The translations under genes were made by a program, and so were the position numbers. This document shows, in pieces, positions 1-60,508 of a stretch of DNA of 64,000 nucleotides. The notes under the pieces are model-generated. The model was not told the DNA's origin, searched no databases, and was given only the letters and a program-made list of their open reading frames with translations. Location of the stretch: NCBI GenBank assembly GCA_002715725.1, contig PAZU01000004.1:18580-82579 (forward strand), in the 5' to 3' direction. Position 1 is the first letter of the stretch. Each line of letters begins with the position of its first letter. This DNA is from Methanobacteriota archaeon (GTDB lineage: Archaea; Thermoplasmatota; Poseidoniia; Poseidoniales; Poseidoniaceae).

Positions 1-2
1 AA

Positions 3-308: not shown

Positions 309-531
309 GAGAATGAGTGAACTCTTTCAATTTTCATAAAGTTTCTGCCACCATGAAAATCGTTAGGATGCTTACCAATAACGGCAGTGACCCATAAGAA
401 ACCCATGCGAACGATGGTGTTTGGATCGGTACCCATCCGAACACCGTCGTTTCAAAGGGCCCCCTCTCGAAAATGAAAATTTCAATCACGCAATACTCAT
501 CATTATAACAAATGATAATCTGTAGATAATC

Positions 532-2265: not shown

Positions 2266-2307
2266 TAACAAAAATTTTGTTTTATGGAGGCCATTTTAGT
2301 CGCTACC

Positions 2308-5755: not shown

Positions 5756-5767
5756 TTCAATTCCCCC

Positions 5768-6040
5768 TTAGTCCGAAAGGACTCCTCCGACCAAATTGGC
5801 GATGATCATTCCGCAACCAACAAAAATACCGATTAAGTAATACCAAATTCCTGAGCCTCCAAGATTGTCCATGAATGGAATAATCTCGCCGATTACAGGA
5901 ACATTGTCCCAGCCAAAAATATTGCTGAACAATGCGATTAGCCCGATTAATCCTATGCTCATCATAACAAGAATTACTCGGGATGCAGATGGTTCTGCGA
6001 CTCCTTCAGACACATCGGGTAGTATCGTATTGTTGGTCAT
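5768..6040 (-). CDS. Small 2-TM membrane protein, 12 nt upstream of the polytopic membrane protein and probably co-transcribed with it
   Basis: Two hydrophobic helices. It is tightly linked to the downstream gene. Confidence 0.5.
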   Translation of the reverse strand: MTNNTILPDVSEGVAEPSASRVILVMMSIGLIGLIALFSNIFGWDNVPVIGEIIPFMDNLGGSGIWYYLIGIFVGCGMIIANLVGGVLSD

Positions 6041-6050
6041 TAAATCACCT

Positions 6051-6067
6051 TGACCCCGTAGGGGTCA
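6051..6067. terminator. Perfect hairpin TGACCCCGTAGGGGTCA downstream of the radical-SAM-like gene
   Basis: 7-bp GACCCC/GGGGTC stem with a 3-nt loop in a 72-nt intergenic gap between two minus-strand genes. No strong oligo-T tract follows. Confidence 0.3.
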
Positions 6068-6112
6068 TTTACGCCACCTATGATACGGTGATAAACATTG
6101 ACCAGCGACAAA

Positions 6113-7279: not shown

Positions 7280-7311
7280 GACTGGGCGTCTGGCTTCGCG
7301 TGTTTGAATGC

Positions 7312-8370
7312 TTACATCAAAGATTGAGTGAAGAAATCAACTATTCGAGTTTCGTATTCGTCGGTATCTGTCAACATTATAGTTTGATGTGCATCGCTTT
7401 CCATTCCTTCACCAACATCATATCTTATTATGGAATCTTTGAACCAACATGCGATTTTGCTTTCATCTCCATTTTCTAATGCTTCGTCGCACATCTGTAC
7501 ACCATGATGTACTCTGACTCTCTGGTCTTGGTTTCCATGTACGACAAACATGTGTCTGTCTCCAATCTCTGTTGCTGCATCTATTGGGAAGTGCTCAATC
7601 AAATTCTGTCCTGCAATTATCTTACCTGCAAAAATTCCTGCACCTCCTAAGAAAGTAGGATAGCCTTGGAATTCTAATTCTTCGACCACTATTGCCCCCA
7701 TGTCAGAATAACCTGATTCTAACCATATTGATTGTAATCTATCGTCTAATGTAAATGCGATTGCAGCTGTTCCTGCCCCCATTGAATTCCCATATATTCC
7801 AATTTCATCGGGATTAGCATCATGCTCATCTATTAGCCAATCAAAAACTGTAATCACGTCTACCCATTCATCCTGACCGCCAGAAACGCGGTTATCATCA
7901 ATTGACGATTCCCCGTGATCTCTCAAATCGAAGACGATGACATTGAAACCTGCATTTGCCAGCATTCCAGAAGGAAGTAGCAAAGCAGCATCTGCTTTAC
8001 AGCCCCTAATTCCGTGAACAAAAATAACCCAGGGCATAGATTCGTTTTGCTTTAGATACCAGGCTGAAAGGAAGAGTCCCTCGCCTTCTACCTCAATGGT
8101 CGCTGAATTATAATCGCTCCACCAATACTGAGATAATCCCGTCATAATATCAGAAGAAATATTTTCGGGATTTTGAGATTCGTTCAAAGGAACTTCATTT
8201 CTTAACGGTGCAAATTGTTCAGGAGTATTTTGGTCAAAATTGCCCCAACAGTCTGTATTAGTAGATGCCACATCATTGTAAACAATTGAGCCCGCCAAGA
8301 AATATCCCGTTGGCAGCAATACGATTAACATCAATAAAAATGGGAAAAATTCTCTCATTAATTTCATCAA
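7312..8370 (-). CDS. Secreted alpha/beta-hydrolase (esterase/lipase-like) with N-terminal signal/TM
   Basis: FVHGIRGC...DLRDHGES...GNSMGAG (GxSxG nucleophile elbow) with later His and Asp. Hydrophobic N-terminus FFPFLLMLIVLLPTGYFLAG. Overlaps psd by 4 nt. Confidence 0.75.
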   Translation of the reverse strand: MMKLMREFFPFLLMLIVLLPTGYFLAGSIVYNDVASTNTDCWGNFDQNTPEQFAPLRNEVPLNESQNPENISSDIMTGLSQYWWSDYNSATIEVEGEGLFLSAWYLKQNESMPWVIFVHGIRGCKADAALLLPSGMLANAGFNVIVFDLRDHGESSIDDNRVSGGQDEWVDVITVFDWLIDEHDANPDEIGIYGNSMGAGTAAIAFTLDDRLQSIWLESGYSDMGAIVVEELEFQGYPTFLGGAGIFAGKIIAGQNLIEHFPIDAATEIGDRHMFVVHGNQDQRVRVHHGVQMCDEALENGDESKIACWFKDSIIRYDVGEGMESDAHQTIMLTDTDEYETRIVDFFTQSLM

Positions 8371-9215
8371 ATCCCTCTGTAAATTATAGTAGACCCTGCT
8401 TTAACAAACTCGCCTTTAGGGTAATCCTTGTTACCATCTTCAGCACTGATTACACATGGATTAAATTTAGCCGCAGGCACTCGAACATCAACTCTGCTAC
8501 CAAGGCGAATCATTCCATACCTTTCACCTCTGCGCAAATCATCTCCTTCTGATTTCCATGGAATGATTGTACGAGCCAGTGCACCTGAAATTTGCATAAC
8601 TTCAACCAATAGGCCGTCCTCTCTATGGAACAATGTTCTCACTCTTTCGTTGTATTCACTTTCTTTTCTGAATGCAGGAAGGAATGGGCCTCTTCTCAGA
8701 CCCTTGCCTGTTCGGTGCTCCATCCGGGTAATCTTTCCAGCGATTGGAGCACGGTTAACGTGTACATCTAGTGGGGACATAAAGACGGCGATTCTCCACA
8801 CATCGGTATCTGATTCTTCTCCTTCTGGCACTGCTTCAAAGCGCTGTTCGGTAGAGAACGACAAAATATCTTCACAAGGTTCAGGATGCCACGACCCAGT
8901 GTGTTCATCTTCCTGTGCACCATCCATCTCATCTTTGGATGGTCTGCGCCCTGTTGCTCTCTCCCTCTTAACGAACATAACATGCCCATCTGCAGGTGAA
9001 ACCAGAACACCTTCATCTCTAGGAATTGGTCGATCGGGGTCTCGCCAAAAGTTAGCAAAAAATGCTGCTAACATCAGCATTAGTATTCCCAAACTGGGAG
9101 CAAGGCCGTAAAGAGGATTGACAAACCATCCAACTAGTATGAATCCGACTCCCATCAATGTAGGTGTAATTACAGGCAGAAATCCGCCTCTGGCTAACAT
9201 AGCCAAATGGCTCAC
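8367..9215 (-). CDS. psd: Phosphatidylserine (archaetidylserine) decarboxylase proenzyme, short membrane-anchored type
   Basis: SPADGHVMFV, AVFMSPLDVHVNRAPIAGKI and a C-terminal GST self-cleavage-type motif (KAGSTIIY). N-terminal TM helices. There is an inserted acidic loop. Confidence 0.8.
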   Translation of the reverse strand: MSHLAMLARGGFLPVITPTLMGVGFILVGWFVNPLYGLAPSLGILMLMLAAFFANFWRDPDRPIPRDEGVLVSPADGHVMFVKRERATGRRPSKDEMDGAQEDEHTGSWHPEPCEDILSFSTEQRFEAVPEGEESDTDVWRIAVFMSPLDVHVNRAPIAGKITRMEHRTGKGLRRGPFLPAFRKESEYNERVRTLFHREDGLLVEVMQISGALARTIIPWKSEGDDLRRGERYGMIRLGSRVDVRVPAAKFNPCVISAEDGNKDYPKGEFVKAGSTIIYRGI

Positions 9216-10175
9216 CTACTGATCGTCCTGTGAGTCTCCGGAATTTCTCCAGACGACTTCTGGCTCCTTATCTCCATCTTCAGAGGATTCATCTGTAGAT
9301 TCCTCTTCAGCTGGTGCTTCTTCAGCTGGCGCATCTTTTGCTGCGAAGTCTGATGCTGCTGCTCCTAACTCTGAACCTTTGAGGTATTTGTTTCCGTCCA
9401 TATCATAGGATTTTGCGAACTCGATGAATGCATCACGGTCAGTGATTCCATTCTTCTGCATGACTCCAACTAGGACTGATTCTGACCAATTCCATTCGTC
9501 TTCATCAGAGTCTTCGGATGTTGCTTCATCGCTAGCCTCAGGAGTGTTTTCTGATTCAACGGCTTCAATTTCTGATGCTTCTTCAAGAGTCATTTCAGCA
9601 GCACGCGCCTCGACCATTTCTTCCATTCTTTCACTGATGGCTCTGCCCATGTGCTGTGATTGCCTTTCTGCTTCTGCAGCTGCTTCAATCATCTCATATC
9701 TGCGCTTGATCGCCTTGTTCAAATCCTCGAATAATGACATGTGATCCATGTACCAATCATCTCTAGTTTGCAATTCTACAACTGCAAGTCGCAGATCATT
9801 ATCTAATTCTTCTGCAATGGAGAATACCTTGCCCAGACGGTCCTTTTCACGAGAGAACTTCTCTTCCATCTTCTGCAATTCTGGCTCTAGGTGCTCGACT
9901 TGCTTGCTGGACTTGCCCGCTTTCATCTCTAAATCGCGAATCCTTGCATCCTTTTCGGTTAGCAAGGCTTCAAGACTCTCTTTTTCGATTTCGCGCTCTA
10001 CGATTTCTTTCTCGAGAACTTCGACTTCCGCTTTAGTATCTCTCAATTCTGCTTCTTGCTGCTCATAAGCTGCATACAACTTGAGCAGACGGTCTGTTTC
10101 TTCCTCAAGTTTCTCTGTGAGTTCTTTAATTTGAGTTTCTGGAGTAATGGTTCCGGTATCAGACATTTCTCTCAC
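9216..10175 (-). CDS. Acidic coiled-coil protein, function unknown
   Basis: Long heptad-like E/K/L-rich N-terminal half and a D/E-rich C-terminus. Abuts psd (9215/9216), which suggests an operon. Confidence 0.6.
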   Translation of the reverse strand: MREMSDTGTITPETQIKELTEKLEEETDRLLKLYAAYEQQEAELRDTKAEVEVLEKEIVEREIEKESLEALLTEKDARIRDLEMKAGKSSKQVEHLEPELQKMEEKFSREKDRLGKVFSIAEELDNDLRLAVVELQTRDDWYMDHMSLFEDLNKAIKRRYEMIEAAAEAERQSQHMGRAISERMEEMVEARAAEMTLEEASEIEAVESENTPEASDEATSEDSDEDEWNWSESVLVGVMQKNGITDRDAFIEFAKSYDMDGNKYLKGSELGAAASDFAAKDAPAEEAPAEEESTDESSEDGDKEPEVVWRNSGDSQDDQ

Positions 10176-11310: not shown

Positions 11311-11920
11311 AAAGGCAGCAACTGAAGTGTTCTCGCAATGGGCTCTTATCGGAAAAGATGAGGGGATGGAAAGAGGACATGCTGCTTCGGTTAAAGCAAT
11401 GCTAGAACTAGCATTGCCTAAGGTAAAATCAGAATTTTCAGCAATTGATTTGGGTTGCGGTAATGGCTGGGTTGTACGTCTGTTATCAAAAATGGGTGCA
11501 TCTCATGTTGAAGGCGTAGATGGTGCAATCGAGATGATTAAGAAGGCTCAAGAAAAGGATTCTGAACACAAATATTCTCACGGAATGTTACCGGAATGGA
11601 GCCCCGGAAGAAGGTTCGACTTAGTTCACTCAATGGAATTTCTATACTACCTTCAAGATCCTGCAGAAATGATTTCGATTATTCATGACCAATGGTTAAC
11701 CAATGGAGGGATATTGATAGCAGGTGTTGACCACTATTTGGAACATGAAGAATCCCTAACATGGCCTGAGCATGTAGGTGTGCACATGAAAACCATGCAA
11801 ATATCAGAATGGGAAGAAGCCATGAAAGTAGCAGGATTTAGAGAAATAGAAATCCATCAAGTTGCTTCTAAAGAAGGTTTTCCTGGAACCTTAGTCATGC
11901 TTGGGCGGGCTAATCATTAG
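11261..11920 (+). CDS. Class I SAM-dependent methyltransferase
   Basis: Motif I AIDLGCGNGWVV and downstream motif-II/III-like segments. The 3' end overlaps the AddA-like gene by 11 nt, convergent. Confidence 0.7.
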   Translation: MRHTVIEGFVLERNMAKKAATEVFSQWALIGKDEGMERGHAASVKAMLELALPKVKSEFSAIDLGCGNGWVVRLLSKMGASHVEGVDGAIEMIKKAQEKDSEHKYSHGMLPEWSPGRRFDLVHSMEFLYYLQDPAEMISIIHDQWLTNGGILIAGVDHYLEHEESLTWPEHVGVHMKTMQISEWEEAMKVAGFREIEIHQVASKEGFPGTLVMLGRANH

Positions 11921-14900
11921 GGTCTTCTAAACTAATATTGCCTGAAAAGAATATACACGCTTTACACACTTCTGGATTTGAGCATTGAGGTGGCTGATAA
12001 TCATCACCAACCGCCGAAATATAGCCCATCCAATCAATCAATCCTTTTAGCTCAGATTGGGTTTTTTTGTATTCTTCATCTCGCATTCGAATCATTCGTC
12101 CAGATGCTGCAACTAAGATTGCAGGCGGCAGTATCTTGCGTTGTTGCGAAACCGGTTTCTTACTTTCGTTCTCTTCTAATGCCAGGCAGTAAAGAGTCAA
12201 CTGGAAGCGATGCGCATCTAATATTTCTTTTTCAGATTCACTTTCAGCATACGGCGAATCGGTACCTGAGACAACCTGTAATGGATGTCCATCTTCGGGT
12301 GATTCTCGATTATATCCAGTTAAGCAGCCCTTGGTCTTGGCATCCACCACTTGTAGCCAACCTTGCCCAGCATTATCTCTCAAAGCCAATACAAGGTCGG
12401 CCCTTCCATCAAAGATTGTATGAACCTCCTCGATTTTCACGAGGGGTATTTCTCCTCTGGGGGACCAGCATTTTCTTTCGATTTCGTGGTTTGACTTTCT
12501 GACGAAATTAAATGGCAATTCAGTTCGCAAACCCTCTACTTTCATTTCATGAATGCTCTCGCCTTGAGTTAACTTCCCTAGTACTCCATCGTCGACTAAT
12601 TTAGCAAGATGATACATTCTAGAACGGACTCTTTTGGTCATCAGGGAATCACTGAAAGATGATTGGGCTAATACTTCATCAAAAGTATCTTCATCCAAGA
12701 GTCGATTCGGTTGAGAATTTGTCCATGTTGCATCAAGATCCTCACGTTTAGTTGCAGGGTTTGCTAAACCGATTTCCAATAGTCTATGGAAAAGTGACCC
12801 GAACTCTTGTGCTGAGGGCCAGAAATCCTCTTTTATTTTGAGTGGGATAAAATTCAGCGGTTCGGCACGCCAATTCATCCGTACCGCGAGCCAGTGTCTT
12901 CTACGACAATTCCATGCTGCATCTAATGAATGTGAAGGCAGTCCAATTTCATGGATTGCTTTTCTTGGACGAGGTGAAGGCTTGACCTCAGTTGCATTAG
13001 CTATTGCGCTAATCCTCTCCTGCCATTTTTGTAATGGTGATTTTAACGGTATTGAATCGAAACAAGAAGGGTGGTGGAAAATTGCAATTCCGTCTACGCT
13101 ATCTTCTGGTAAAAATCCATTTTCAATCAGAACGCCTGGGTCTAGTCGTAAGACATTCCCCGTTTGTTCTAAGCCCCCTTCCGACCAAGTGCTGCCTTCA
13201 TTTCCAGCCTTAATCGACGAAAAGGCTAGGCCGTCTAGGAGCATATATCCCATGTTCTCACGAGCCTGCCCTCTGCTCATTTCCAAATATCCATCTGAGG
13301 AAATGTTGGCCCCTCCGCTTGGAGTCCCAACCACGATGACACGGTCTCTTGCCCTAGTTAGAGCAACGTAGAATTGACGGCGCCTCTCAGCCATTCTTTG
13401 GCCCTCCTCCATCATTGATGCTAGAGCCCATAAGCCACTTTCGGGTTTGTCAACTCCTCTCCATGGGTGAATTCGGCCTGCAATCATTTCAGGCGTAACA
13501 AGAACATTGTCGCTAGAGGAAAGACTGGAGTCTCTAGCACCAATATTGAATAAATCGTAGAGAACTACAACTGGAGATTCTAATCCTTTTGAACTATGTA
13601 TTGTAAGTACCTTAACCGCTCCAGTGGTTGCATCTGATGTACTCTTTGGCCCGTCAGAATCTAAATCTTCTAGTTCTCTTAATCTCAATTGGGCCAAAGC
13701 TGCATCTCCGCCTTCTTTCTCCAAAATCCTCTCGAATAATGAAAGCCAATTATTGACATCCTGCCGGTCCCCCTCCCTCGGGAATGTTCTGAGTAAATCT
13801 GAGTGGTCTATCATGGTATTTATGGCACGCAGAATGTCGTTATGAGCCACTAAAGAGGCGAATTTCTCTAGGAGGTTTTTCAGCTCCACGGTTGGAACAA
13901 TGTCTGCCAAGCCTAGTATCTGGTTACCAGTTGATTCTAACAAGTGGTCATTGAGTGTTGCATCGTCTAAACCGACTAAACAAGATTGTCCAACCGCTAA
14001 AGCTGCAGCTCTATCATTGGGTGAACATGCAAGCCATAGTAAAGACATCAGAGGCTGTATTGCGGGACGTTGGAGTAGTATGCCTTGCTTATCGGCAATA
14101 GCAGGTATCCCATGTTCTTCCAAGACATTTAGGATATCGGGAATTCTACTCCTTGAAGCGACTAAAATCATGATGTCTTCCGGCAAGATTTGATGTGCCG
14201 CTCCGTCTACTTCCTTCCACGAATCATTTTTACAATCTTTAACCCGAGTTTTCTGTCCACTCAGCAGAGAAACTAGCCGCTTTGCAAGCAACTGGTTTGA
14301 GAGATCCCTATTGGTAGAATCTATGTTTTCAAAGGGATTTATTGGGACAGAAAGGTCTTCAGGAATTTCCGATACTTCAGTTCTTGCAGGTAAAATCCAT
14401 TCGAACGCCGACTCGAAATCGGACTTACGTCCCGGCAGAAGATCTTGCGCCTCAGCATGCCAAGGCCCAGGTAATGCCTGATGCCTTCTTGAAAAGGTAT
14501 CTTGGAAAATGTGATTCATTGTGTTCAGCAAACCAGGTAATGTTCGATGATTGATACGCATTTCAATATGGCCTTGAGAACGTTTGCTGATAACATCAGA
14601 ATCTACTTTAGAAGGATTATCATCATTGGCAAACAATATCCATTCTTCTCTTTTCGAGTCATCAGAAATCATCTCACTAGAACGGATAAAACCAGTTTCT
14701 TCTCCTCCTTTTCCAGGAATTGGACGAGGGTCTCTAGAACTTCCTGACTTCTTTAAATCACTAAGACGATGTTCCATAGCGGACTCATCCATGTTTATGT
14801 TACGAATTATCTCTACAGCCCTACGCATTACAGTAAGTTCTGCCTGACGGAACCGATAGATGGATTGTTTCATATCGCCCACAATACAGACCGTTGGGTC

Positions 14901-16709
14901 CCATTCTCCAGCAGGTGGCCGGAGCTCGTCGCTCTCTAAATGTCGCCTGCCCCACAAACGAGCTAAAAGACGGAAATGTTGTGGATTTGTATCCTGGTAT
15001 TCATCAATAATGAAGGCTCGATAACCACGCCTCAATTCTCGTAAAATTGTGATTCTTCTCATCAAATCTTCATGGACTTCAGATTTACCATTACAGGCGA
15101 CTATTGCCCTTGAAAGATGATCGTCTAACCATGGCTTATCTCCTATCGAATCTAATGCATCAATAACATTGGTAGGATACCAAGTGCGACATACTGCGGG
15201 ACATCTTGTTAACAGCAAGTCCTCTGCAAAGCGATGCATATCGTCATGATCAGTCACTCCTTCCTGGGATTTCAAACGAGCCAAAATCTCTTGGATTCCA
15301 TTATTTACGGTGAATAGGTCTTGAATTACTTCAATCTCTAAATCAGTAGTCAACCGCATTGCCCTATCCACTGGTAATTGAGGTAGATCCACACCGATTC
15401 TCGGGGGGTGGGCATATTGCCCTTCAACCGGTACGGGTTCGGCTATGCAAGGATTGAGTAAGAATGATGCACGGCCTATACTCCTCAAAAGTAAGCCATT
15501 TGCTGTACTCATCATTGAACGAATTGGAATAGAAAGTGCCTCTGCATTACTTGTTATCAAATTCTTTACATCTGCAGTCATTGCTTTATTTGCAGTCTTT
15601 GAAAGTATACCAGAGGGCCAGCCTTGAGAGGTAGGAGGTGATGCTCTGGACAAGGCTTTGCAATCTATTTTGTTAATTTTTGCAGCTGGCGCGATAGCAT
15701 GGGATACAAGCCATATCCACTGCAATCTCCAGATTTGTTCATCGGAATTAAGCGTGCACAGATTTTGAACATACCTGAAGCGAGTCATTCCATCTGAACA
15801 GTCTGCACCTGTAATGAAGTGGGCACCACCATCTAACCAATTGTCGACCCATTCTTCTATCAAAGTCCGAAAATCAAGATACCATGCATCCAGAATGTCA
15901 GCAGTTGGCTCTAAGAACAAATGGTCGAGATCTTCTACCAAAATATTTCTACCTTTATCTCCCATCGACCTTGCTGCTTCCTCTACGAATAACGAGCGTT
16001 TCATCAAGCCTCTGATTACCGTAGATGATGCACTCTGGCCTCCTAATCTAACAGAAAGACGGTCTCTTGCTTCTAGGAATTCCTCGATGTCTCCGGTCAT
16101 TCCGACCTCAATTGCATCTATTCCTTTCTGAAGCCGCCATGCCGTACGAATCGCTTCTTCACGAAGTAAAATACTACCTTCTTCGTCAACTTGCTCACCA
16201 CCAGGATTGTCGCAAACTAATCCTATCCATGGTGAAACTATTGATGACAAGAACGCATCGATAGTTGAAATAGGGGCGTCTTCCATTAATGAAAGAAGCA
16301 TTTCTACATCTCCTTGATCTGAAATCCTAGTGTCATGGACTCCATTGAAATCGCCTTCTGCGGGAGGTGCTGCTCTGAGAGAAGATATCAATCTTCGAAT
16401 CTTTCCTTTCAATTCAGCAGCTGCTTTTCGAGTAAATGTAATGGCTACTGTTTCAGTTGGTAGAAGACCTCTCCAATCCTTAAGAGAAGTTCTTTCAATT
16501 GCCGGGCAACGGATCGCACCCATGCCTTTGAGAGGAACACGAGCAGCAGGTGGAAGGACGCGGGTTGCTCTTTGCTTGTGTGATAATATGTGCTGGACAT
16601 AGCGATGTGCCATTACTGTAGTTTTACCGGTTCCGGCGCCAGCATCTAAAGCGATGTGTCTGTCGATATCTAGACCTAGCTTTTGAGAGTGATTTAATTT
16701 CATTACCAA
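11910..16709 (-). CDS. AddA/RecB-like UvrD-family helicase with C-terminal RecB-type (PD-(D/E)xK) nuclease domain carrying a Cys cluster
   Basis: SF1 motifs in order: I DAGAGTGKTT, Ia AITFTRKAAAEL, II FIIDEYQDTN, III VGDMKQSIYRFRQA, IV NHRTLPG, V LTIHSSKGLESPVV, VI YVALTRARDRVIVV. Nuclease: ADLVLALRD..WLQVVDAKTKG, QLTLY (QxxxY). Cys in AAWNCRRR plus terminal CSNPEVCKAC (C-x5-C-x2-C). Confidence 0.8.
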   Translation of the reverse strand: MVMKLNHSQKLGLDIDRHIALDAGAGTGKTTVMAHRYVQHILSHKQRATRVLPPAARVPLKGMGAIRCPAIERTSLKDWRGLLPTETVAITFTRKAAAELKGKIRRLISSLRAAPPAEGDFNGVHDTRISDQGDVEMLLSLMEDAPISTIDAFLSSIVSPWIGLVCDNPGGEQVDEEGSILLREEAIRTAWRLQKGIDAIEVGMTGDIEEFLEARDRLSVRLGGQSASSTVIRGLMKRSLFVEEAARSMGDKGRNILVEDLDHLFLEPTADILDAWYLDFRTLIEEWVDNWLDGGAHFITGADCSDGMTRFRYVQNLCTLNSDEQIWRLQWIWLVSHAIAPAAKINKIDCKALSRASPPTSQGWPSGILSKTANKAMTADVKNLITSNAEALSIPIRSMMSTANGLLLRSIGRASFLLNPCIAEPVPVEGQYAHPPRIGVDLPQLPVDRAMRLTTDLEIEVIQDLFTVNNGIQEILARLKSQEGVTDHDDMHRFAEDLLLTRCPAVCRTWYPTNVIDALDSIGDKPWLDDHLSRAIVACNGKSEVHEDLMRRITILRELRRGYRAFIIDEYQDTNPQHFRLLARLWGRRHLESDELRPPAGEWDPTVCIVGDMKQSIYRFRQAELTVMRRAVEIIRNINMDESAMEHRLSDLKKSGSSRDPRPIPGKGGEETGFIRSSEMISDDSKREEWILFANDDNPSKVDSDVISKRSQGHIEMRINHRTLPGLLNTMNHIFQDTFSRRHQALPGPWHAEAQDLLPGRKSDFESAFEWILPARTEVSEIPEDLSVPINPFENIDSTNRDLSNQLLAKRLVSLLSGQKTRVKDCKNDSWKEVDGAAHQILPEDIMILVASRSRIPDILNVLEEHGIPAIADKQGILLQRPAIQPLMSLLWLACSPNDRAAALAVGQSCLVGLDDATLNDHLLESTGNQILGLADIVPTVELKNLLEKFASLVAHNDILRAINTMIDHSDLLRTFPREGDRQDVNNWLSLFERILEKEGGDAALAQLRLRELEDLDSDGPKSTSDATTGAVKVLTIHSSKGLESPVVVLYDLFNIGARDSSLSSSDNVLVTPEMIAGRIHPWRGVDKPESGLWALASMMEEGQRMAERRRQFYVALTRARDRVIVVGTPSGGANISSDGYLEMSRGQARENMGYMLLDGLAFSSIKAGNEGSTWSEGGLEQTGNVLRLDPGVLIENGFLPEDSVDGIAIFHHPSCFDSIPLKSPLQKWQERISAIANATEVKPSPRPRKAIHEIGLPSHSLDAAWNCRRRHWLAVRMNWRAEPLNFIPLKIKEDFWPSAQEFGSLFHRLLEIGLANPATKREDLDATWTNSQPNRLLDEDTFDEVLAQSSFSDSLMTKRVRSRMYHLAKLVDDGVLGKLTQGESIHEMKVEGLRTELPFNFVRKSNHEIERKCWSPRGEIPLVKIEEVHTIFDGRADLVLALRDNAGQGWLQVVDAKTKGCLTGYNRESPEDGHPLQVVSGTDSPYAESESEKEILDAHRFQLTLYCLALEENESKKPVSQQRKILPPAILVAASGRMIRMRDEEYKKTQSELKGLIDWMGYISAVGDDYQPPQCSNPEVCKACIFFSGNISLEDPND

Positions 16710-19700
16710 CCACCTCTCTTAGATCCTAGGCAAGAGCCAATTGTCGGGCAATTACAGGGTATTTTCCCTGCTTCAGCATTCTCAATAACACGATTAGCTG
16801 TTGTTATCCTCTCTCTCATCCAAGCCCTAAATGGGTTTGATTCAGCGGGTGTTGACTCGCCAGGACGCCGATATTGGTTGACCAAACTTTGAGTTACAAT
16901 ACCAACCTTTGATTCACTCAACAAATCAATAAAATCAGGGTCCAATTCCACCCAAGGGTGAGTGTCGATTCCAACCTGAGTTACTCCAATTCCAATTACT
17001 CTATGACCTGGATTGCCAATTTCCCAAGCCCTTGCATAGAGGGCGAGTTGGACTTCATCGAACAGTCCTTTCAAATGACGAGCTTCTTTTCCATCATCTT
17101 TAGGGCCATCCATGGATTTGATATCTCTGATTATTACCAATTTGCTAACTGGAACATGTTGTTTCAAATTCAAATCCAAAGGAATCGTTTCGGCTTCTTT
17201 TTCTAATTCGTAATCAACCAAAACTTCGTCTACCTTATCGATGAAACCAGTTATCTTGAAACTTTTTTCTTCCGTTTCCTGTTCAGGAGAGGATGGAAGA
17301 ACAATTGTAACATTTCTATTGCTATTTACCCGGACTTCCCATTCACTAGCGATAGGAGCACAATCTCTCAATCCGAAGTCTGCTTGAATCATTCTACCAA
17401 GACGTCCACCTACAGGAATGGTTTCTTCTCCCTCTAACCAAGAGACCCATTGAGACGGAGATACGCCGATTAAATCTCTACAGCGATGAGCGGCGACTCC
17501 ATCGGCTCGCTTCATCCAGGGCGCTTTTTCCATCAACGTTTTTAGCACAACTTGCCATGCATCATTGATATCTTTTAGAGGCCCTTCAGCAAGTGTGATT
17601 GCTTGTTCAGCAATCTGTTCATCTTCCACGCCATGTGCTCGTAAAACAGCCTCTTCGACAAAGTGGACAATATTTCCTCGAGCATTTGCAGCGAGATCTT
17701 CTGGTACTTTTTCCTCCTGGCCTAATCTCAAATGACGATCAATCCAAGCCTTTCTTGGACAGAATAGCCATGCCTGTAATCTGCTTTGTGACCATATCTT
17801 TGGTAGCCTCAATGAAACTCCAGTAATTCCAGTACGCTCATCTAGAGTTTTGATACCTGTTGAAGAAGGCAATATAGGTCGAGGATCAATTCCAAGGATT
17901 GCTTTCTTTTCTGTTACTTCGCCAAGGTGGGGCCACTGTGAAGAGTCTCTAGCACTTGGGATATTATTTCGATTGGGAATCAACCTGTAATCCTTGGTTC
18001 TAATCATTTTTCCAGAGTCCTCGAAAGGGAAAATCTCCCCTACATCGAATGAAGAAATTCCTTTTCGGCGATTGTACTGGTCAGGCAATAGATCCTTCTT
18101 GACGGCCTCAAGAATAGAATTCTGATTCAAAGGTTGGCTAGTTATTTCTCGCCCTTCAATAGATGCAAGACCCGCTCTTTGGAGCTCATCTCTTGGTAGT
18201 TTACCGCTACGATGGGTCCTGACCCCGTCCGCTAACATTTCCATAGAACTTACTTTGTGAACTAAACGTAAACCGATGTCCGGAATCGTTTGCCATGACC
18301 AAGAGCGGTCTGGAGTATCTGGTTTCCAATCATTGGAATCGATGAATGAGGGTGGATTTTCTAAATTCAACTCGTCTTCATCTGTAGAAATTGTGCTAAA
18401 CCATTCTTCCAAAGGGCCCGCTGGTTCAATCCCATCTTGAAGGCTTGAATCTAGGATAACAACAGTCTTGGAACTATTGAGTAAGTGGCGAAGATGATGA
18501 CGGCCTTTTCGTAAGCCGTCATCTGGTCGATTTATTCCAAGGCGCATTCTTGACATTTCGTCTAACCATGGAACTGATGGTGACTTCATTGACCATTTGT
18601 TTGAGTTTAGTCCGCTAAGAATGAGAGTATCACTAGTCGTACCTAATGCTTGGTTCGGATTAAGTATCCTAATGCCCGTATCTGTGCCTCTTCGCGAGGG
18701 TAACTGAGTGTTGCTCGCCAAGTGTTGAAGCATTTCATAGAAGTCGTCCCCTTCAAAATCGAGTCCCATTTCTTGAGTTAATCTAGTTAAAGATTCAATG
18801 AAATATTGAAGTCCAGGAATTGAATTAGACTCTACAGAATCTCTGCCTGCTAATAATCGCCAGTCAATTTGTTCTAACAAAGAGTTGAACCAAATAATCG
18901 GGTTTTCTATTAGCTCAGGTAGAGGTAGTTCCTCTCCTGAAATACATCCAATACATTTCTGCATCGCAACCTCTCTGTCCTGTTTTGAAAGAATTGGAGC
19001 CATCCATCTCGACATTGCAGCCAGCCACCATTGGCTTTCTTCTAATGCCCGAGATTGGTCTTCATCTCCAGTAAAACGAGGAGTGGCTTGAGAAAGGGTT
19101 GAGAGCCATCTGCGAAGAGAACCTCTGCCTCCCAATATGTGAAATCCTCTAGCAATCTCTACCAAAGTTTCCGGATGTAATTTCGGTTTCCAAGCAGGAT
19201 CTGTCGGGTGTTCGAGGTTCATTACCCCCCAAGTCATTGGAAGACCTATTTGTTCAACTAAATCGGTTAAACGAGTCAATGACCATGCTTCTTCACCACG
19301 TGAGATTCCAATAATAGAAAGTATCCTTGAGACCGCTGGACTTGATGATATTGTAGAATTTTCTCCCCGCAGACGAAAACCCTGATTCTCAAGGTGAGAT
19401 GAAAGTTTTTTTCGCAGGTTACTAGAGTCTCCGTCGACTATCATTACGTCTCCTTCAACTCGAGAAAGTAAATCTCCAATGGCTGAAATACTCTGGTTTT
19501 CTGACTCTACCATAAGGTGGTATATGTTGCTATTAGAATTAGGTGACTTCCAACCTTGTTGCTGTTTAGGTATCCATACCTTATGCTCAGGGACCCAATT
19601 TGGAAGGTCTGATTGTTTTCTTACTGGATGTATATCTTCGATGTACTCCCCATGATATCCAAGGCGATGGGAACCGGGATTTACAAGTTGGTGGAGATTT

Positions 19701-20365
19701 ACTAGTTGACTTATCCTACTCATTATAGCAATCTCAACTTCGCTCAAACTGCTAGCATGATCAAGCATGATTATCCCGGACAAATCTCTAAGACTGAAAG
19801 GTATTTGGTCGGTTTCAGTTATTGCGTCTAGAACTACTCTAGCCCTTCGTGAAGGATGAGTCATCCCAGTTTTATTTTCTAACTTCTTCAACGCTTTGTC
19901 GCATGAAATTGCACCAGGGTCTTCCTCCCAGTTGTGAGGTTTAAGAAGCGAAATTATTTCTCTGTGTAATGATAAAATCCTGTGAGACCTTGAACGCGTC
20001 CAAACATTTTGAGGATTTGGCTGAAGTAGTGGAAATCCATAATCAGCGGCATGAGATGATAGAGCCTGATGCGTTAGTTCGAATGTAACACCATCGTCTT
20101 CCATAACAGCAGGTAATCGTAAATCGATATGTAACATCGATATTAATCTCTGAATTGTAAGATGGTGAGATGAATCAACAATGCCTCCACCAATCATGTT
20201 ATGCAAATCGGAAATTGTTTGCTTTCTTGATGCCTCCGTTGAATGGATAACCATCAACCGTTGGCCCGAAACAATCGCCTCTAACAACCAGTTAGGAGCG
20301 CCAACACCGGCCTCTATTGCCTCCATTGACAAAATAGGTTGTTCGGATTCATTAGCGGACATCAT
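16703..20365 (-). CDS. AddB-like partner subunit: no intact Walker A, C-terminal RecB-type nuclease with 4-Cys iron-staple-like cluster
   Basis: C-terminus: WLFCPRKAW (first Cys), GFIDKVDEV, LVIIRDIKSMDG (D..D.K), QLALYARAW (QxxxY), terminal CNCPTIGSC. No P-loop in the N-terminal region. The start overlaps the AddA-like stop by 7 nt, which suggests translational coupling. Confidence 0.7.
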   Translation of the reverse strand: MMSANESEQPILSMEAIEAGVGAPNWLLEAIVSGQRLMVIHSTEASRKQTISDLHNMIGGGIVDSSHHLTIQRLISMLHIDLRLPAVMEDDGVTFELTHQALSSHAADYGFPLLQPNPQNVWTRSRSHRILSLHREIISLLKPHNWEEDPGAISCDKALKKLENKTGMTHPSRRARVVLDAITETDQIPFSLRDLSGIIMLDHASSLSEVEIAIMSRISQLVNLHQLVNPGSHRLGYHGEYIEDIHPVRKQSDLPNWVPEHKVWIPKQQQGWKSPNSNSNIYHLMVESENQSISAIGDLLSRVEGDVMIVDGDSSNLRKKLSSHLENQGFRLRGENSTISSSPAVSRILSIIGISRGEEAWSLTRLTDLVEQIGLPMTWGVMNLEHPTDPAWKPKLHPETLVEIARGFHILGGRGSLRRWLSTLSQATPRFTGDEDQSRALEESQWWLAAMSRWMAPILSKQDREVAMQKCIGCISGEELPLPELIENPIIWFNSLLEQIDWRLLAGRDSVESNSIPGLQYFIESLTRLTQEMGLDFEGDDFYEMLQHLASNTQLPSRRGTDTGIRILNPNQALGTTSDTLILSGLNSNKWSMKSPSVPWLDEMSRMRLGINRPDDGLRKGRHHLRHLLNSSKTVVILDSSLQDGIEPAGPLEEWFSTISTDEDELNLENPPSFIDSNDWKPDTPDRSWSWQTIPDIGLRLVHKVSSMEMLADGVRTHRSGKLPRDELQRAGLASIEGREITSQPLNQNSILEAVKKDLLPDQYNRRKGISSFDVGEIFPFEDSGKMIRTKDYRLIPNRNNIPSARDSSQWPHLGEVTEKKAILGIDPRPILPSSTGIKTLDERTGITGVSLRLPKIWSQSRLQAWLFCPRKAWIDRHLRLGQEEKVPEDLAANARGNIVHFVEEAVLRAHGVEDEQIAEQAITLAEGPLKDINDAWQVVLKTLMEKAPWMKRADGVAAHRCRDLIGVSPSQWVSWLEGEETIPVGGRLGRMIQADFGLRDCAPIASEWEVRVNSNRNVTIVLPSSPEQETEEKSFKITGFIDKVDEVLVDYELEKEAETIPLDLNLKQHVPVSKLVIIRDIKSMDGPKDDGKEARHLKGLFDEVQLALYARAWEIGNPGHRVIGIGVTQVGIDTHPWVELDPDFIDLLSESKVGIVTQSLVNQYRRPGESTPAESNPFRAWMRERITTANRVIENAEAGKIPCNCPTIGSCLGSKRGGW

Positions 20366-20448: not shown

Positions 20449-21387
20449 ATGTGCGCCATTAGGAATTGTATGCGAGTAAGAGCAACATGTGTAATTTTGG
20501 TTTTATTGCTTTCAATAATTCCGTCTACTAATGCTGGTTCGCCTGAAGAACTGGATAATGTCGGTCCTGTATTTGGTGGAGTTCACCTAGATGCAAATGT
20601 TTCTGGAAATAGCTCCAGCAGCCTTTCTGATTTGCCTGCAATCGTAGAAGATTATACTGCAACATGGTGTACCAACTGCGTAGATGTGGAACACGCACTT
20701 GATGACATAGCTGACGATAATCACATGCAAACATATCATTTCCACCGATTCATCGGTGAAAATGAAGACCCACTCGGCTCACAGGAAGGAGACGATAGGT
20801 GGATTGACAGATATGAGCAGAGGTTGCCTCCGACTGCTGTATTCAATGGAACCATTAGACAAGTTGGAAGTGTTCCTGATGGAGAAACACTACAAGATGA
20901 TTACAACCAAAATCTACAGAACTATCTGAGCCTAGGAATCGGTTCCTCCTCATTAGGATGGGTTGTGAGCAACGACTCGAATCCTATTGCAACTTGGAAT
21001 CTAGCAGTTGATATGTCGAATTTCCCAGAGGATAGTCACATCGAATCATCTCTTTGGATTGTTGAAGTTCTCGCATACTTCCCAGACGGTGGAAACCAAG
21101 AAGAATATTATCACAAGAGCGTGAAAACTGTTATCCAACTAGGTAACGCTACCACAGGATCCATGGAAGTTACAATGCCTACTGCATACGATGGAGATGA
21201 CTTACAAGTACACTTAATTCATGAAGTAATTCTTCCAGAACCGGAAGATGAAACTCCAGCAATTCCTCCAACAGATGACGATTCTTCAGAAGATGATGAA
21301 GACAGTGGTTTGCCTAGTATTGGCCTAGTTGCTGTACTAGCGATTACTATGTTTGCGGCCATCACTGTGCAGCGAAAGCAGCAATGA
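20449..21387 (+). CDS. Secreted thioredoxin-fold protein (WCxxC) with acidic linker and C-terminal TM anchor plus basic tail
   Basis: Signal-like N-terminus. DYTATWCTNCVDVEHALDD is a CxxC redox motif. C-terminus PPTDDDSSEDDEDSGLPSIGLVAVLAITMFAAITVQRKQQ. Confidence 0.65.
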   Translation: MCAIRNCMRVRATCVILVLLLSIIPSTNAGSPEELDNVGPVFGGVHLDANVSGNSSSSLSDLPAIVEDYTATWCTNCVDVEHALDDIADDNHMQTYHFHRFIGENEDPLGSQEGDDRWIDRYEQRLPPTAVFNGTIRQVGSVPDGETLQDDYNQNLQNYLSLGIGSSSLGWVVSNDSNPIATWNLAVDMSNFPEDSHIESSLWIVEVLAYFPDGGNQEEYYHKSVKTVIQLGNATTGSMEVTMPTAYDGDDLQVHLIHEVILPEPEDETPAIPPTDDDSSEDDEDSGLPSIGLVAVLAITMFAAITVQRKQQ

Positions 21388-60444: not shown

Positions 60445-60508
60445 TACATTGCTTCCGAGTCTCCTACGGAGACTCTTTTTTCAATACACTTAGAATAATC
60501 CCAGGCAG

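What the first reader, a model, noticed from the sequence alone, without database searches (positions are those of the whole stretch)
11910..20365. AddAB/AdnAB-like two-gene helicase-nuclease module in an archaeal genome, with Cys clusters in both nuclease domains
Two overlapping minus-strand genes (7-nt overlap) encode a 1599-aa SF1 UvrD/Rep helicase fused to a RecB-type nuclease, and a 1220-aa partner with no P-loop but a C-terminal RecB-type nuclease with 1+3 Cys. All helicase motifs I-VI are present in canonical order in the first protein. That is the bacterial AddA/AddB layout. Archaea normally use Mre11-Rad50/HerA-NurA for end resection, so an AddAB-type machine here points to horizontal acquisition or an unrecognised archaeal lineage of these enzymes. 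The A-like subunit also carries a C...C-x5-C-x2-C cluster, which canonical AddA lacks, hinting at a variant with iron-staple domains in both subunits. AddAB/RecBCD-like complexes also act in phage restriction, so a defence role is conceivable.
Basis: partly seen in the sequence, partly recalled or inferred. Interest (0 to 1): 0.7.

Follow-up and report, generated by a model that had tools for sequence, protein, structure and literature searches.

The report
Divergent AddAB helicase-nuclease in marine archaea
Two overlapping genes in a Marine Group II (Poseidoniales) archaeon encode a very divergent version of the bacterial AddAB DNA-break-processing machine, kept across the whole order and unusual in carrying an iron-sulfur-type cysteine cluster in both nuclease domains.

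Summary
Two co-oriented minus-strand genes, B at 16703-20365 and A at 11910-16709, encode an AddB-like and an AddA-like protein.

- **A subunit:** it has all SF1 helicase motifs plus a RecB-type nuclease. Its closest solved relative is AddA (E 8e-32, against 3.5e-16 for RecB).
- **Context:** the surrounding genes are archaeal (MCM, GatE, archaeal ribosomal proteins, proteorhodopsin).
- **Conservation:** 261 GTDB species genomes encode a B relative, and the 80 best loci are all Poseidoniales. A follows B in all 78 loci where this can be seen. The housekeeping gene neighbourhood is also conserved.
- **Cysteine clusters:** B keeps 1+3 Cys in 72 of 72 full-length homologues. A keeps 1+3 Cys in about 90%, with coordinated losses and one ligand swap. 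That pattern argues for a real metal site, which canonical AddA lacks.
- **Not new as a category:** haloarchaeal plasmids carry canonical AddAB-like pairs, and Cromie (2009) already suggested transfer of addAB into archaea.

It is a new variant of a known kind. A defence role has no support. The origin and the relation to Mre11-Rad50/HerA-NurA remain untested.

The parts
16703..20365 (-). addB-like gene (1220 aa). It is the upstream gene of the pair.
18296..20365 (-). B residues 1-690: helicase-like (RecA-fold) N-terminal region with the motor motifs lost. The P-loop position reads LMVIHSTEASRKQ (37-49). A Walker-B-like IIMLDH lies at 198-203.
   Evidence: No GK[ST] in the protein. pLDDT is mostly 80-93 here. 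The model aligns with the AddB, AdnA, UvrD, Rep and RecC helicase folds. The sequence family of this region is confined to about 311 representatives, and every named one is Poseidoniales.
16706..17803 (-). B residues 855-1220: RecB-family nuclease domain with catalytic H901, D1043, D1081-x-K1083 and Q1106..Y1110.
   Evidence: All these residues are invariant in 19-26 homologues. Pfam PDDEXK_1 and cas4 hits.
17759..17761 (-). B Cys869 (CPRKAW helix): the first ligand of the putative [4Fe-4S] 'iron staple'.
   Evidence: Invariant. The motif CPRxx[WF] is present in 72 of 72 full-length homologues. hhalign places it on the Cys of haloarchaeal AddB-like proteins.
16730..16756 (-). B C1204-x-C1206-x5-C1212: the three C-terminal cluster ligands.
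   Evidence: Invariant. The spacing is CxxCx5C in most homologues and CxCx5C in the query clade.
11910..16709 (-). addA-like gene. The longest ORF is 1599 aa from TTG. The probable start is the ATG at 16703, giving 1597 aa.
   Evidence: ORF. Pfam UvrD-helicase, UvrD_C and PDDEXK_1 matches. NCBIfam hits to recB and addA at 90-121 bits. The family profile's best match among solved structures is AddA 3u44_A, E 8e-32.
16701..16709 (-). Gene junction TTGGTAATG. The B stop codon TAA overlaps the A start ATG by 1 nt (7 nt if the TTG is used), which implies translational coupling.
   Evidence: Sequence read directly. A abuts or overlaps the end of B in 78 of 80 related loci.
13290..16709 (-). A residues 1-1140: SF1A (UvrD/Rep-type) helicase motor with motifs Q, I, Ia, II, III, IV, V and VI. 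Compared with AddA it has about 175 extra residues between motifs I and III and a roughly 70-residue loop after motif III.
   Evidence: Motif positions. Motif residues invariant. Collinear HMM alignment to AddA residues 26-52, 434-450 and 471-888.
11913..12947 (-). A residues 1255-1599: RecB-family nuclease domain with H1308, D1438, D1456-x-K1458 and Q1503..Y1507.
   Evidence: Residues invariant. The AF2 model has pLDDT 80. Its Foldseek matches are the AdnA, AddB and AddA nuclease domains and the Cas4-family proteins ACE1, Cas4 and Exo5.
12906..12908 (-). A Cys1268 (CRRRHWL helix): the first ligand of a second putative metal cluster.
   Evidence: Present in about 90% of homologues. Its loss is always accompanied by decay or re-arrangement of the C-terminal Cys.
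11955..11984 (-). A C1576-x5-C1582-x2-C1585: the three C-terminal cysteines.
   Evidence: Read from the sequence. Most other clades carry CxxC-x9-C at the same place. hhalign aligns this segment with the C-terminal Cys of B.

Best explanation
The two genes encode the subunits of an AddAB-type heterodimeric helicase-nuclease that processes double-stranded DNA ends. This is a single-motor, dual-nuclease design.

**Shown here**
- A carries a complete SF1A motor and an intact RecB-family nuclease.
- B has an AddB-like fold: a helicase-like body without ATPase motifs, followed by an intact RecB-family nuclease.
- Both nuclease domains are bracketed by 1+3 cysteines in the AddB/Cas4/Dna2 'iron-staple' arrangement.
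- The genes are translationally coupled in the order B then A.
- The pair is a vertically inherited core feature of the Poseidoniales.

**Inferred by analogy with Bacillus subtilis AddAB**
- The complex binds a blunt or nearly blunt DNA end.
- The A motor translocates 3'->5' on one strand and unwinds the duplex.
- The A nuclease cuts the 3'-terminated strand and the B nuclease cuts the 5'-terminated strand.
- The dead-helicase body of B scans the 3' strand and may respond to a Chi-like regulatory sequence.
- The product is a 3' overhang for the archaeal recombinase RadA.
- The Cys clusters bind [4Fe-4S] and staple the nuclease domains.

Degradation of linear foreign DNA would be a by-product of this activity, as it is for RecBCD and AddAB.
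For: **A subunit**
- Pfam finds UvrD-helicase, UvrD_C and PDDEXK_1.
- The RecB and AddA models are the best NCBIfam hits.
- The family profile hits AddA 3u44_A at E 8e-32. The next hits are RecB at 3.5e-16, then AdnB and UvrD at about 1e-15.
- All motor and nuclease residues are invariant.

**B subunit**
- It has no P-loop.
- The AF2 model has pLDDT 75.
- Foldseek ranks five AddB chains first, at E 2.5e-18 to 1e-17 over about 1240 columns. AdnA follows at 3.6e-12, AddA at 7e-11 and RecC at 8e-10.
- 15 of 19 members hit TIGR02786 AddB.
- The profile-profile alignment to haloarchaeal AddB-like proteins is collinear and places Cys1, His and the GxIDxVD motif in register, but the statistics are weak (E 0.002).

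**Pairing and inheritance**
- A lies immediately downstream of B in 78 of 80 loci. The other two are cut by contig ends.
- The same pairing holds in the most divergent members.
- 261 GTDB species genomes encode a B relative, and the 80 best loci are all Poseidoniales.
- The neighbourhood MCM-GatE-...-PTH2-lyase-x-B-A-hydrolase-x-PSD is conserved.

**Metal sites**
- B has the full Cys set in 72 of 72 full-length homologues.
- In A, 56 of 62 species-level genes have the full 1+3 set.
- The losses in A are coordinated. Both segments are deleted in the P0048-53 clade. In P0062, P0067 and P0070 the N-terminal Cys is replaced by Ser or Asn and the C-terminal Cys have decayed.
- In P0058 and P0063 the N-terminal Cys is lost while the tail gains a fourth Cys (CxxCxxCx6C).
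- B keeps its cluster in lineages where A has lost its own.
Against: - Sequence similarity to curated AddA and AddB models is far below the equivalog cut-offs: A scores 119 bits against 708, and B scores 30 bits against 486.
- The N-terminal 850 residues of B find no bacterial AddB among the best 150 of 311 hits in 1.84 billion representatives. B also finds nothing in the PDB by sequence. The AddB assignment therefore rests mainly on a predicted structure of medium confidence, with TM-scores of only about 0.4.
- No heterodimer, ATPase, nuclease or Fe-S evidence exists.
- No Chi-like word emerged from the 64-kb window.
- RadA, rather than RecA, would be the downstream partner, and AddAB-RadA coupling is unknown.
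Confidence: 0.78

Rival explanations
1. The pair is primarily an anti-virus or anti-plasmid defence module. It would be a helicase-nuclease that destroys invading linear DNA, like the UvrD-Cas4 fusions found next to restriction-modification genes or the GajB-type helicases, rather than a repair enzyme.
For: - A gives weak hits to GajB UvrD-helicase models in PADLOC.
- UvrD-Cas4 fusions occur in defence contexts in bacteria and mesophilic archaea (PMC5704561).
- RecBCD and AddAB are known to degrade phage DNA (established knowledge).
Against: - The PADLOC hits cover only the generic helicase core, and B has no defence-family hit apart from a marginal Cas4 match.
- The pair sits in a conserved housekeeping neighbourhood across the whole order. 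No methyltransferase, restriction or other defence genes lie nearby.
- It is present in essentially every lineage sampled rather than patchily.
- No copies were found on viral contigs.
Confidence: 0.1
2. The two proteins act independently. A would be a stand-alone UvrD-Cas4-like helicase-nuclease and B an unrelated large PD-(D/E)XK nuclease that merely shares an operon with it.
For: - The N-terminal region of B has almost no sequence similarity to any characterised protein.
- Stand-alone UvrD-nuclease fusions exist.
Against: - Adjacency with overlapping stop and start codons is strict in every locus that can be assessed, over 29-100% sequence identity.
- The predicted fold of B is the AddB fold over its full length, not just a nuclease.
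- An AddB HMM hit lies in the helicase-like region of B in 15 of 19 members.
Confidence: 0.07
3. It is an AdnAB-like (two motors, two nucleases) or RecBC(D)-like machine rather than an AddAB-like one.
For: - AdnA and RecC appear among the structural matches of B.
- The AdnA nuclease is the top Foldseek match of the A nuclease domain.
- RecB is the top NCBIfam hit of A by 2 bits.
Against: - B has no Walker A and no helicase motifs, whereas both AdnA and AdnB have motor domains.
- B keeps a complete catalytic nuclease motif set and 4 Cys, which RecC lacks (established knowledge).
- No recD-like gene is adjacent.
- AddB outranks AdnA by about 6 orders of magnitude in E-value and RecC by about 8.
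- AddA outranks RecB by 16 orders of magnitude with the family profile.
Confidence: 0.03
4. The genes belong to a bacterial contaminant or a mis-binned contig.
For: Two of the 80 related loci carry bacterial MAG labels, Flavobacteriales and Verrucomicrobiales.
Against: - The same contig carries MCM, GatE, archaeal-type ribosomal proteins, PTH2, PAC2 and Trm1.
- Synteny with MCM and GatE is conserved across the related loci, including a 1.5-Mb and a 3.0-Mb contig.
- GC content is uniform.
- The bacterial labels are best explained as mis-binned MAG contigs.
Confidence: 0.01

Closest known systems
Bacterial AddAB (Bacillus subtilis AddA/AddB; PDB 3U44, 3U4Q, 4CEH-4CEJ)
   Same: - The operon order is addB then addA.
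- A has an SF1A motor plus a RecB nuclease.
- B has a helicase-like but motor-dead body plus a RecB nuclease with 1+3 Cys.
- AddA and AddB are the best sequence and structure matches.
   Different: - A is about 365 residues longer: roughly 175 extra between motifs I and III, a 70-residue loop after motif III, and about 118 extra in the C-terminal part.
- HMM scores are 6 to 16 times below the family cut-offs.
- B lacks even the Walker A motif that B. subtilis AddB retains (from memory).
- A carries a 1+3 Cys cluster, whereas in canonical AddAB the Fe-S cluster resides in AddB only (PMC3378879).
- The host is an archaeon, so the recombinase is RadA.
Haloarchaeal plasmid AddAB-like pairs (e.g. 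Halobacterium salinarum R1 PHS3 OE_RS12980/12975; Halapricum desulfuricans pHSR-Est01 HSEST_RS14050/14055)
   Same: - They are archaeal.
- The layout is the same: a PD-(D/E)XK protein upstream of, and overlapping, a UvrD-helicase protein.
- B has C...CxxCx5C.
- A shares 23% identity with the window's A over the helicase (E 6e-21).
   Different: - They are much closer to the bacterial families. A scores 340-357 bits on addA_alphas over nearly its full length, and B scores 58-75 bits on the addB models.
- Their sizes are canonical: 1211-1237 aa for A and 1018-1062 aa for B.
- Their A nuclease domain has no cysteines.
- They are plasmid-borne rather than part of a chromosomal core.
- The window's B gives no tblastn hit to them, and profile-profile similarity is weak.
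Mycobacterial AdnAB
   Same: - It is a heterodimer of two helicase-nuclease fusion proteins.
- AdnA is the second-best structural match of B and the top match of the A nuclease domain.
   Different: - Both Adn subunits keep motor domains, whereas B here has none.
- No Fe-S clusters are reported in AdnAB (from memory).
RecBCD
   Same: - RecB combines a helicase with a nuclease.
- RecC is a dead helicase that scans for Chi, and it is a structural match of B (E 8e-10).
   Different: - There is no RecD partner here.
- RecC has no active nuclease and no Cys cluster.
- RecB scores 16 orders of magnitude worse than AddA with the family profile.
UvrD-Cas4 fusion proteins and Cas4/Dna2/Exo5 'iron-staple' nucleases
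   Same: - The A nuclease domain has the Cas4-type 1+3 Cys arrangement.
- It matches the ACE1, Cas4 and Exo5 structures and weakly matches the cas4 HMM.
   Different: - The described UvrD-Cas4 fusions are stand-alone or sit next to restriction-modification or Dcm-Vsr genes.
- Here A is strictly paired with an AddB-like partner in a housekeeping context.

Membership tests
AddAB helicase-nuclease | Two adjacent, co-oriented genes (addB-addA) that are inherited together | tested here: met
   The stop and start codons overlap. A follows B in 78 of 80 loci, and the other two are cut by contig ends. The same pairing holds in the most divergent members.
AddAB helicase-nuclease | AddA: a complete SF1A (UvrD/Rep) motor followed by a RecB-family nuclease with catalytic D / DxK / QxxxY | tested here: met
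   Pfam hits. Motif positions. The residues are invariant. AddA is the best solved relative, at E 8e-32.
AddAB helicase-nuclease | AddA reaches the curated equivalog score (TIGR02785 at 707.65 bits or TIGR02784 at 860.75 bits) | tested here: not met
   A scores 119.3 and 90.5 bits. The haloarchaeal pairs also fall below the cut-offs, at 300-357 bits. These models were built on bacterial clades.
AddAB helicase-nuclease | AddB: a helicase-like fold without motor function, followed by an active RecB-family nuclease | tested here: met
AddAB helicase-nuclease | AddB reaches the curated equivalog score (TIGR02773 at 903.7 bits or TIGR02786 at 486.5 bits) | tested here: not met
   B scores 30.2 bits on TIGR02786 and has no hit to TIGR02773. 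15 of 19 members do give a significant sub-threshold hit.
AddAB helicase-nuclease | AddB nuclease domain bracketed by 1+3 Cys that bind a [4Fe-4S] cluster | tested here: inconclusive
   The sequence pattern is met in 72 of 72 full-length homologues. Metal binding itself cannot be tested with these tools.
AddAB helicase-nuclease | Stable A:B heterodimer with ATP-dependent unwinding and dual-strand degradation | not testable with these tools
   The tools fold single chains only. No biochemistry is available.
AddAB helicase-nuclease | Regulation by a Chi sequence recognised in AddB | tested here: inconclusive
   A k-mer over-representation and skew scan of the 64-kb window gave no candidate beyond the effects of codon and strand bias. 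A complete genome is needed.
AdnAB | Both subunits carry helicase motor motifs | tested here: not met
   B has no Walker A and no GK[ST].
RecBCD | RecC-like subunit without catalytic nuclease residues, plus a RecD SF1B helicase subunit | tested here: not met
   B keeps all the nuclease catalytic residues. The neighbouring genes are a secreted CxxC protein and hydrolases, not a helicase.
UvrD-Cas4 defence-associated fusions (Hudaiberdiev et al. 2017) | Stand-alone gene, or next to Type III restriction-modification or Dcm-Vsr genes | tested here: not met
   A is always paired with an AddB-like gene in a conserved housekeeping neighbourhood.

The most novel reading that the evidence does not exclude
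Poseidoniales carry an ancient, lineage-specific branch of the AddAB family in which both nuclease domains are iron-staple (Cas4/Dna2-type) Fe-S domains. This could be the ancestral state left by the duplication that produced AddA and AddB. The A cluster would then have been shed repeatedly, perhaps under the iron scarcity of the surface ocean. This enzyme, rather than Mre11-Rad50/HerA-NurA, would be the main DNA-end resection machine feeding RadA in the most abundant planktonic archaea. It might have its own Chi-like control sequence.
Probability: 0.25. Interest if true: 0.75.

Novelty: new variant of a known kind. Interest (0 to 1): 0.52.

Why it matters
Reviews and current papers still state that RecBCD and AddAB are absent from archaea (for example the 2026 preprint read). 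End resection in archaea is instead attributed to Mre11-Rad50 with HerA-NurA.

Here an AddAB-type machine is a conserved core gene pair of an entire archaeal order, and that order dominates surface-ocean archaeal plankton. The databases name the two proteins only 'UvrD-helicase domain-containing', 'PD-(D/E)XK nuclease family' or 'hypothetical'.

**What it opens up**
- It offers a natural experiment on how a bacterial-type resection enzyme works with an archaeal recombinase.
- It is a version of AddAB with putative Fe-S clusters in both nucleases. Natural lineages that lost or rewired the A cluster are useful for asking what the iron staple is for.
- It bears on CRISPR spacer acquisition and on recombination-driven gene replacement, such as the proteorhodopsin 'overwrite' proposed for this group.

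**Limits**
- AddAB-like pairs already exist on haloarchaeal plasmids, and archaeal addAB was noted in 2009.
- Nothing here is biochemical.

Tried and rejected
1. **Sequence search of B against the PDB.** Neither the single sequence nor the 19-sequence profile gave a hit at E<=10. The AddB link needed structure prediction and HMM sub-threshold hits.
2. **Full-length B profile in the representative search.** The search was re-run with the N-terminal 850 residues. It returned only 311 hits, with no bacterial AddB among the 150 listed. The 161 weaker hits were not shown.
3. **Global hhalign of the A and B nuclease domains.** It failed. A local alignment gave E 6e-4 with Cys1, His, QLxLY and the C-terminal Cys in register.
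4. **Chi search.** Words of 6 to 8 bases scored by maximal-order Markov z-score and strand skew in 64 kb gave top z of 2-3.5. The skewed words (for example CCATCAA, 25 versus 1) are explained by their sub-words and by the minus-strand gene bias. This was rejected as evidence.
5. **Defence hypothesis.** PADLOC gave only generic helicase hits. No viral copies were found. There are no neighbouring defence genes.
6. **A third subunit.** The conserved divergent neighbour at 20449-21387 is a secreted, membrane-anchored CxxC protein. The gene at 9216-10175 encodes an acidic coiled-coil protein. Neither is plausibly part of the machine.
7. **Extent beyond Poseidoniales.** The most divergent B (P0225, on a 71% GC, 3.0-Mb contig) found only itself in the homologue search, so the taxonomic limits of the family were not extended.
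8. **Literature.** No paper links Marine Group II or Poseidoniales with AddAB, RecB, Mre11 or Rad50. Cromie 2009 and Yeeles 2009 are not held, so which archaea Cromie listed could not be checked.
9. **Cys-Cys distances in the models.** These could not be measured because model coordinates are not exposed.

Full report
**1. Observation**

B is the upstream gene.

The junction reads GGT TGG TAA TG AAA. An ATG at 16703 therefore overlaps the TAA stop of B by one base and is preceded by GAGAGGTGG. The nearest homologues are called at 1597 aa. The likely A protein is therefore 1597 aa, and the '7-nt overlap' is the upper bound given by the longest ORF. Either way the genes are translationally coupled.

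A contains the SF1 motifs Q, I, Ia, II, III, IV, V and VI in canonical order. Pfam finds UvrD-helicase, UvrD_C, UvrD_C_2, AAA_19 and PDDEXK_1, all above the gathering score. B has no Walker A of any kind, and PDDEXK_1 is its only Pfam domain. The cysteines are as described: A has C1268 + C1576-x5-C1582-x2-C1585, and B has C869 + C1204-x-C1206-x5-C1212.

**2. The host is an archaeon of Marine Group II (order Poseidoniales)**

The same 64 kb encodes the following:
- MCM at 27165-29279
- GatE at 25133-27187
- archaeal/eukaryotic-type L13, L18e and S9 at 60821-62140
- PTH2, PAC2 and Trm1
- a proteorhodopsin at 54497-55306

GC content is even across the region. A protein identical to B is deposited as 'Euryarchaeota archaeon' on a 90-kb contig. 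The named homologues of both proteins are 'Candidatus Poseidoniales', 'Poseidoniaceae' or 'Thermoplasmatota archaeon'. Contamination is excluded.

**3. Conservation and inheritance**

A scan of one genome per GTDB species found 261 genomes encoding a relative of B. The 80 best loci are all Poseidoniales from both families, Poseidoniaceae and Thalassarchaeaceae. Two carry obviously mis-binned bacterial labels.

In 78 of these 80 loci the A gene starts within a few bases of the end of B, on the same strand. In the other two the contig ends right after B. The same pairing is seen for the most divergent B proteins, at 29-35% identity, and on a 3.0-Mb, 71% GC contig.

The surrounding genes are conserved too: MCM, GatE, a PQQ-repeat protein, DUF6580, PTH2, a beta-eliminating lyase, a divergent secreted protein, then B and A, then an alpha/beta hydrolase, a coiled-coil protein and phosphatidylserine decarboxylase. 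This is a stable housekeeping region, not an island. No copy was found on viral contigs.

The pair is therefore an old, vertically inherited core feature of the order. If it came from bacteria, that happened before the order diversified.

**4. What A is**

NCBIfam places A nearest RecB (121 bits) and AddA (119 and 90 bits), ahead of PcrA, UvrD and Rep. All scores are far below the equivalog cut-offs of about 700-860 bits.

Against the sequences of all solved structures, a 21-sequence family profile hits B. subtilis AddA at E 8e-32. RecB follows at 3.5e-16 and UvrD1, AdnB, UvrD and PcrA at about 1e-15.

The alignment to AddA is collinear. It shows where the roughly 365 extra residues lie:
- about 175 between motifs I and III (an enlarged 1B region)
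- a loop of about 70 residues after motif III
- about 118 in the C-terminal part

The motor residues and the nuclease residues (H1308, D1438, D1456-A-K1458, Q1503..Y1507) are invariant in homologues down to 41% identity.

**5. What B is**

By sequence B is nearly an orphan:
- It has no PDB hit, even with a profile.
- It has no plasmid hit.
- An exhaustive HMMER search with its N-terminal 850 residues against 1.84 billion representatives found only 311 proteins. The full-length ones are all about 1130-1375 aa, and every named one is Poseidoniales.

Three lines of evidence nevertheless identify it as AddB-like.
1. 15 of 19 family members independently hit the AddB model TIGR02786 (best E 7e-8) in the helicase-like region (residues 530-637 of the window protein). 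8 of the 19 hit cas4 in the nuclease region.
3. Profile-profile alignment with haloarchaeal AddB-like proteins is collinear over 363 columns. It puts the first Cys, the His motif and GxIDxVD in register, though with weak statistics (E 0.002, probability 12%).

The position of the P-loop is occupied by an invariant, non-nucleotide-binding sequence (LMVIHSTEASRKQ), so B is not a motor. Its nuclease residues H901, D1043, D1081-I-K1083 and Q1106..Y1110 are invariant.

**6. The cysteine clusters**

B has the motif CPRxx[W/F] and a C-terminal C-x(1-2)-C-x5-C in 72 of 72 full-length homologues. This is the AddB/Cas4/Dna2 arrangement, with one Cys before and three after the nuclease core (PMC3378879).

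A has an equivalent C-x-R-R-x-W-L helix plus three C-terminal Cys in about 90% of homologues. At species level the count is 56 of 62 complete genes. The spacing of the C-terminal trio differs between clades. It is CxxC-x9-C in most and C-x5-CxxC in the clade of this window.

The exceptions are informative:
- One clade (P0048-P0053, L027) has deleted both the N-terminal Cys helix and the C-terminal tail.
- In P0062, P0067 and P0070 the N-terminal Cys is replaced by Ser or Asn, and the C-terminal Cys have decayed to one or none.
- In P0058 and P0063 the N-terminal Cys is lost but the tail has gained a fourth Cys (CxxCxxC-x6-C).

Coordinated loss and ligand replacement are what a four-ligand metal site predicts. 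Where A has lost its cluster, B keeps its own. The most divergent pair (L084) has both clusters, so the two-cluster state is probably ancestral for this family.

The model of the A nuclease domain (pLDDT 80) matches the AdnA, AddB and AddA nuclease domains and the Cas4-family proteins ACE1, Cas4 and Exo5. It does not match the RecB nuclease. A local profile alignment of the A and B nuclease domains puts the four Cys of each in register (E 6e-4).

In canonical AddAB the Fe-S cluster is in AddB only. The haloarchaeal AddA-like proteins examined here have no Cys at all in their nuclease domain. Actual metal binding was not, and could not be, tested.

**7. Mechanism proposed**

*Shown.* The module has one motor subunit with a nuclease. 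It has one motor-dead, AddB-fold subunit with a nuclease. The two genes are coupled, and all catalytic residues are under strong conservation.

*Inferred from the B. subtilis AddAB paradigm.* The heterodimer loads on a DNA end. A pulls the 3'-terminated strand through (3'->5' translocation). The nuclease of A cuts that strand, and the nuclease of B cuts the 5'-terminated strand. The helicase-like body of B may recognise a regulatory sequence on the 3' strand that switches the enzyme to making a 3' tail. That tail would be handed to RadA.

I put about 0.78 on the AddAB-type assignment. I am less confident about the physiological emphasis on recombinational repair and fork rescue as opposed to degradation of foreign DNA, which is not an exclusive alternative.

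**8. Rivals**

- **Dedicated defence system.** This is unsupported. PADLOC gives only generic GajB/UvrD helicase hits, there are no defence neighbours, the pair is universally present, and there are no viral copies.
- **AdnAB or RecBCD.** These assignments fail on defining features. B has no motor, B has an active nuclease with Cys, and there is no RecD.
- **Independent action of the two proteins.** This is unlikely given the strict coupling and the AddB fold.

**9. Relation to what is known**

Searching A against plasmids gave an unexpected result. The best hits are haloarchaeal plasmid genes annotated only as 'UvrD-helicase domain-containing protein'. In Halobacterium salinarum R1 PHS3 and Halapricum desulfuricans pHSR-Est01 these genes are preceded by an overlapping 'PD-(D/E)XK nuclease family protein' gene.

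These pairs are canonical AddAB-like:
- A is 1211-1237 aa and scores 340-357 bits on addA_alphas over nearly its full length.
- B is 1018-1062 aa and hits the addB_Gpos, addB_alphas and rexB models.
- B has C...CxxCx5C, and A has no nuclease-domain Cys.

In Halapricum the pair sits next to a Rad50-like ATPase and an Mre11/SbcD-like exonuclease. This recalls the addBA-sbcDC arrangement that I remember for B. subtilis.

A 2010 paper states, citing Cromie 2009, that addAB genes may have been transferred 'even into the archaea'. I also recall, from memory only, that Cromie's abstract mentions an 'unexpected identification of archaeal addAB genes'. The paper itself is not held. Archaeal AddAB is therefore not a new category, although recent work still says that RecBCD and AddAB are not present in archaea.

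I found no paper that mentions such a system in Marine Group II. The Cas4 phylogenomics paper describes UvrD-Cas4 fusions in mesophilic archaea, but as stand-alone or restriction-modification-associated genes.

The new elements here are these:
1. The pair is a chromosomal core pair conserved across a whole, ecologically dominant archaeal order.
2. It is extremely divergent. HMM scores are three times lower than those of the haloarchaeal pairs for A, and the B N-terminal region is unique to the lineage.
3. The A subunit is enlarged.
4. There are Cys clusters in both nuclease domains, with natural loss and rewiring variants.

**10. Verdict**

I file it as a new variant of a known kind, of moderate interest (0.52).

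The open points are:
- origin, meaning ancient transfer or an old lineage
- whether Poseidoniales also have Mre11-Rad50/HerA-NurA, which cannot be tested with a 64-kb window and the scans left
- complex formation
- Fe-S binding
- any Chi-like control; the k-mer scan of the window was uninformative

Noticed in passing
L085 (Halapricum desulfuricans pHSR-Est01) 1-9523; L086 (Halobacterium salinarum R1 PHS3) 2506-9190: Haloarchaeal plasmids carry canonical AddAB-like gene pairs that are annotated only generically. The A protein scores 340-357 bits on addA_alphas. In Halapricum the pair lies next to a Rad50-like ATPase and an Mre11/SbcD-like 'DNA repair exonuclease'. 26 plasmid records matched A, most of them haloarchaeal, with a few from cyanobacteria.
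   Followed up: partly
window 43973-45118 (-) and 43124-43993 (+): A stand-alone 381-aa Cas4-like PD-(D/E)XK nuclease matches PF12705 over its full length (E 4e-22). It has its own CPRMYW + C-x3-C-x5-C cysteines, making it a third iron-staple-type nuclease in the window. It is convergent with an RNase T/DEDD-type exonuclease gene, and their 3' ends overlap by 21 nt.
   Followed up: partly
window 50095-52107 (-): A bacterial-type NAD-dependent DNA ligase LigA (TIGR00575, 559 bits, above the 444-bit cut-off) is encoded in this archaeal genome. It is a second bacterial-style DNA-repair or replication enzyme near the AddAB-like pair.
   Followed up: no
L084 (ENA ERZ26167216 ctg495766, 3.0-Mb contig); L081: A 71% GC, 3.0-Mb contig carries the same MCM-GatE...B-A...PSD-radical SAM synteny, with a very divergent B/A pair that keeps both Cys clusters. 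L081 is 64% GC. Its B protein found only itself in the homologue search, so it may come from an unsampled high-GC relative of Poseidoniales.
   Followed up: partly
homologues P0058, P0063, P0062, P0067, P0070, P0048-P0053; loci L027, L031, L034, L046: There are natural variants of the A-subunit Cys cluster. They include complete deletion, decay of all ligands after loss of the N-terminal Cys, and replacement of the lost N-terminal Cys by a fourth Cys in the C-terminal tail (CxxCxxCx6C).
   Followed up: yes
window 55846-60444 (-) and 33603-37781 (-): There are two giant ORFs. The 1532-aa one has no Pfam or NCBIfam match at all. The 1392-aa one has FG-GAP and fibronectin-III repeats and is probably a surface protein.
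   Followed up: no
window 54497-55306 (+): A proteorhodopsin gene (Bac_rhodopsin, E 2e-44) lies next to an ABC transporter. This is typical of photoheterotrophic Marine Group II.
   Followed up: no
window 60508-60583 (-): ARAGORN calls a tRNA-Pro(GGG) here. The Rfam gathering-threshold scan reported only the tRNA-Arg at 39990-40063.
   Followed up: no
window 20449-21387 (+): The divergent neighbour of B is conserved beside it in 68 of 80 loci. It is a secreted, C-terminally membrane-anchored protein with a thioredoxin-like WCTNC motif and no Pfam family. It is probably unrelated to the helicase-nuclease.
   Followed up: partly
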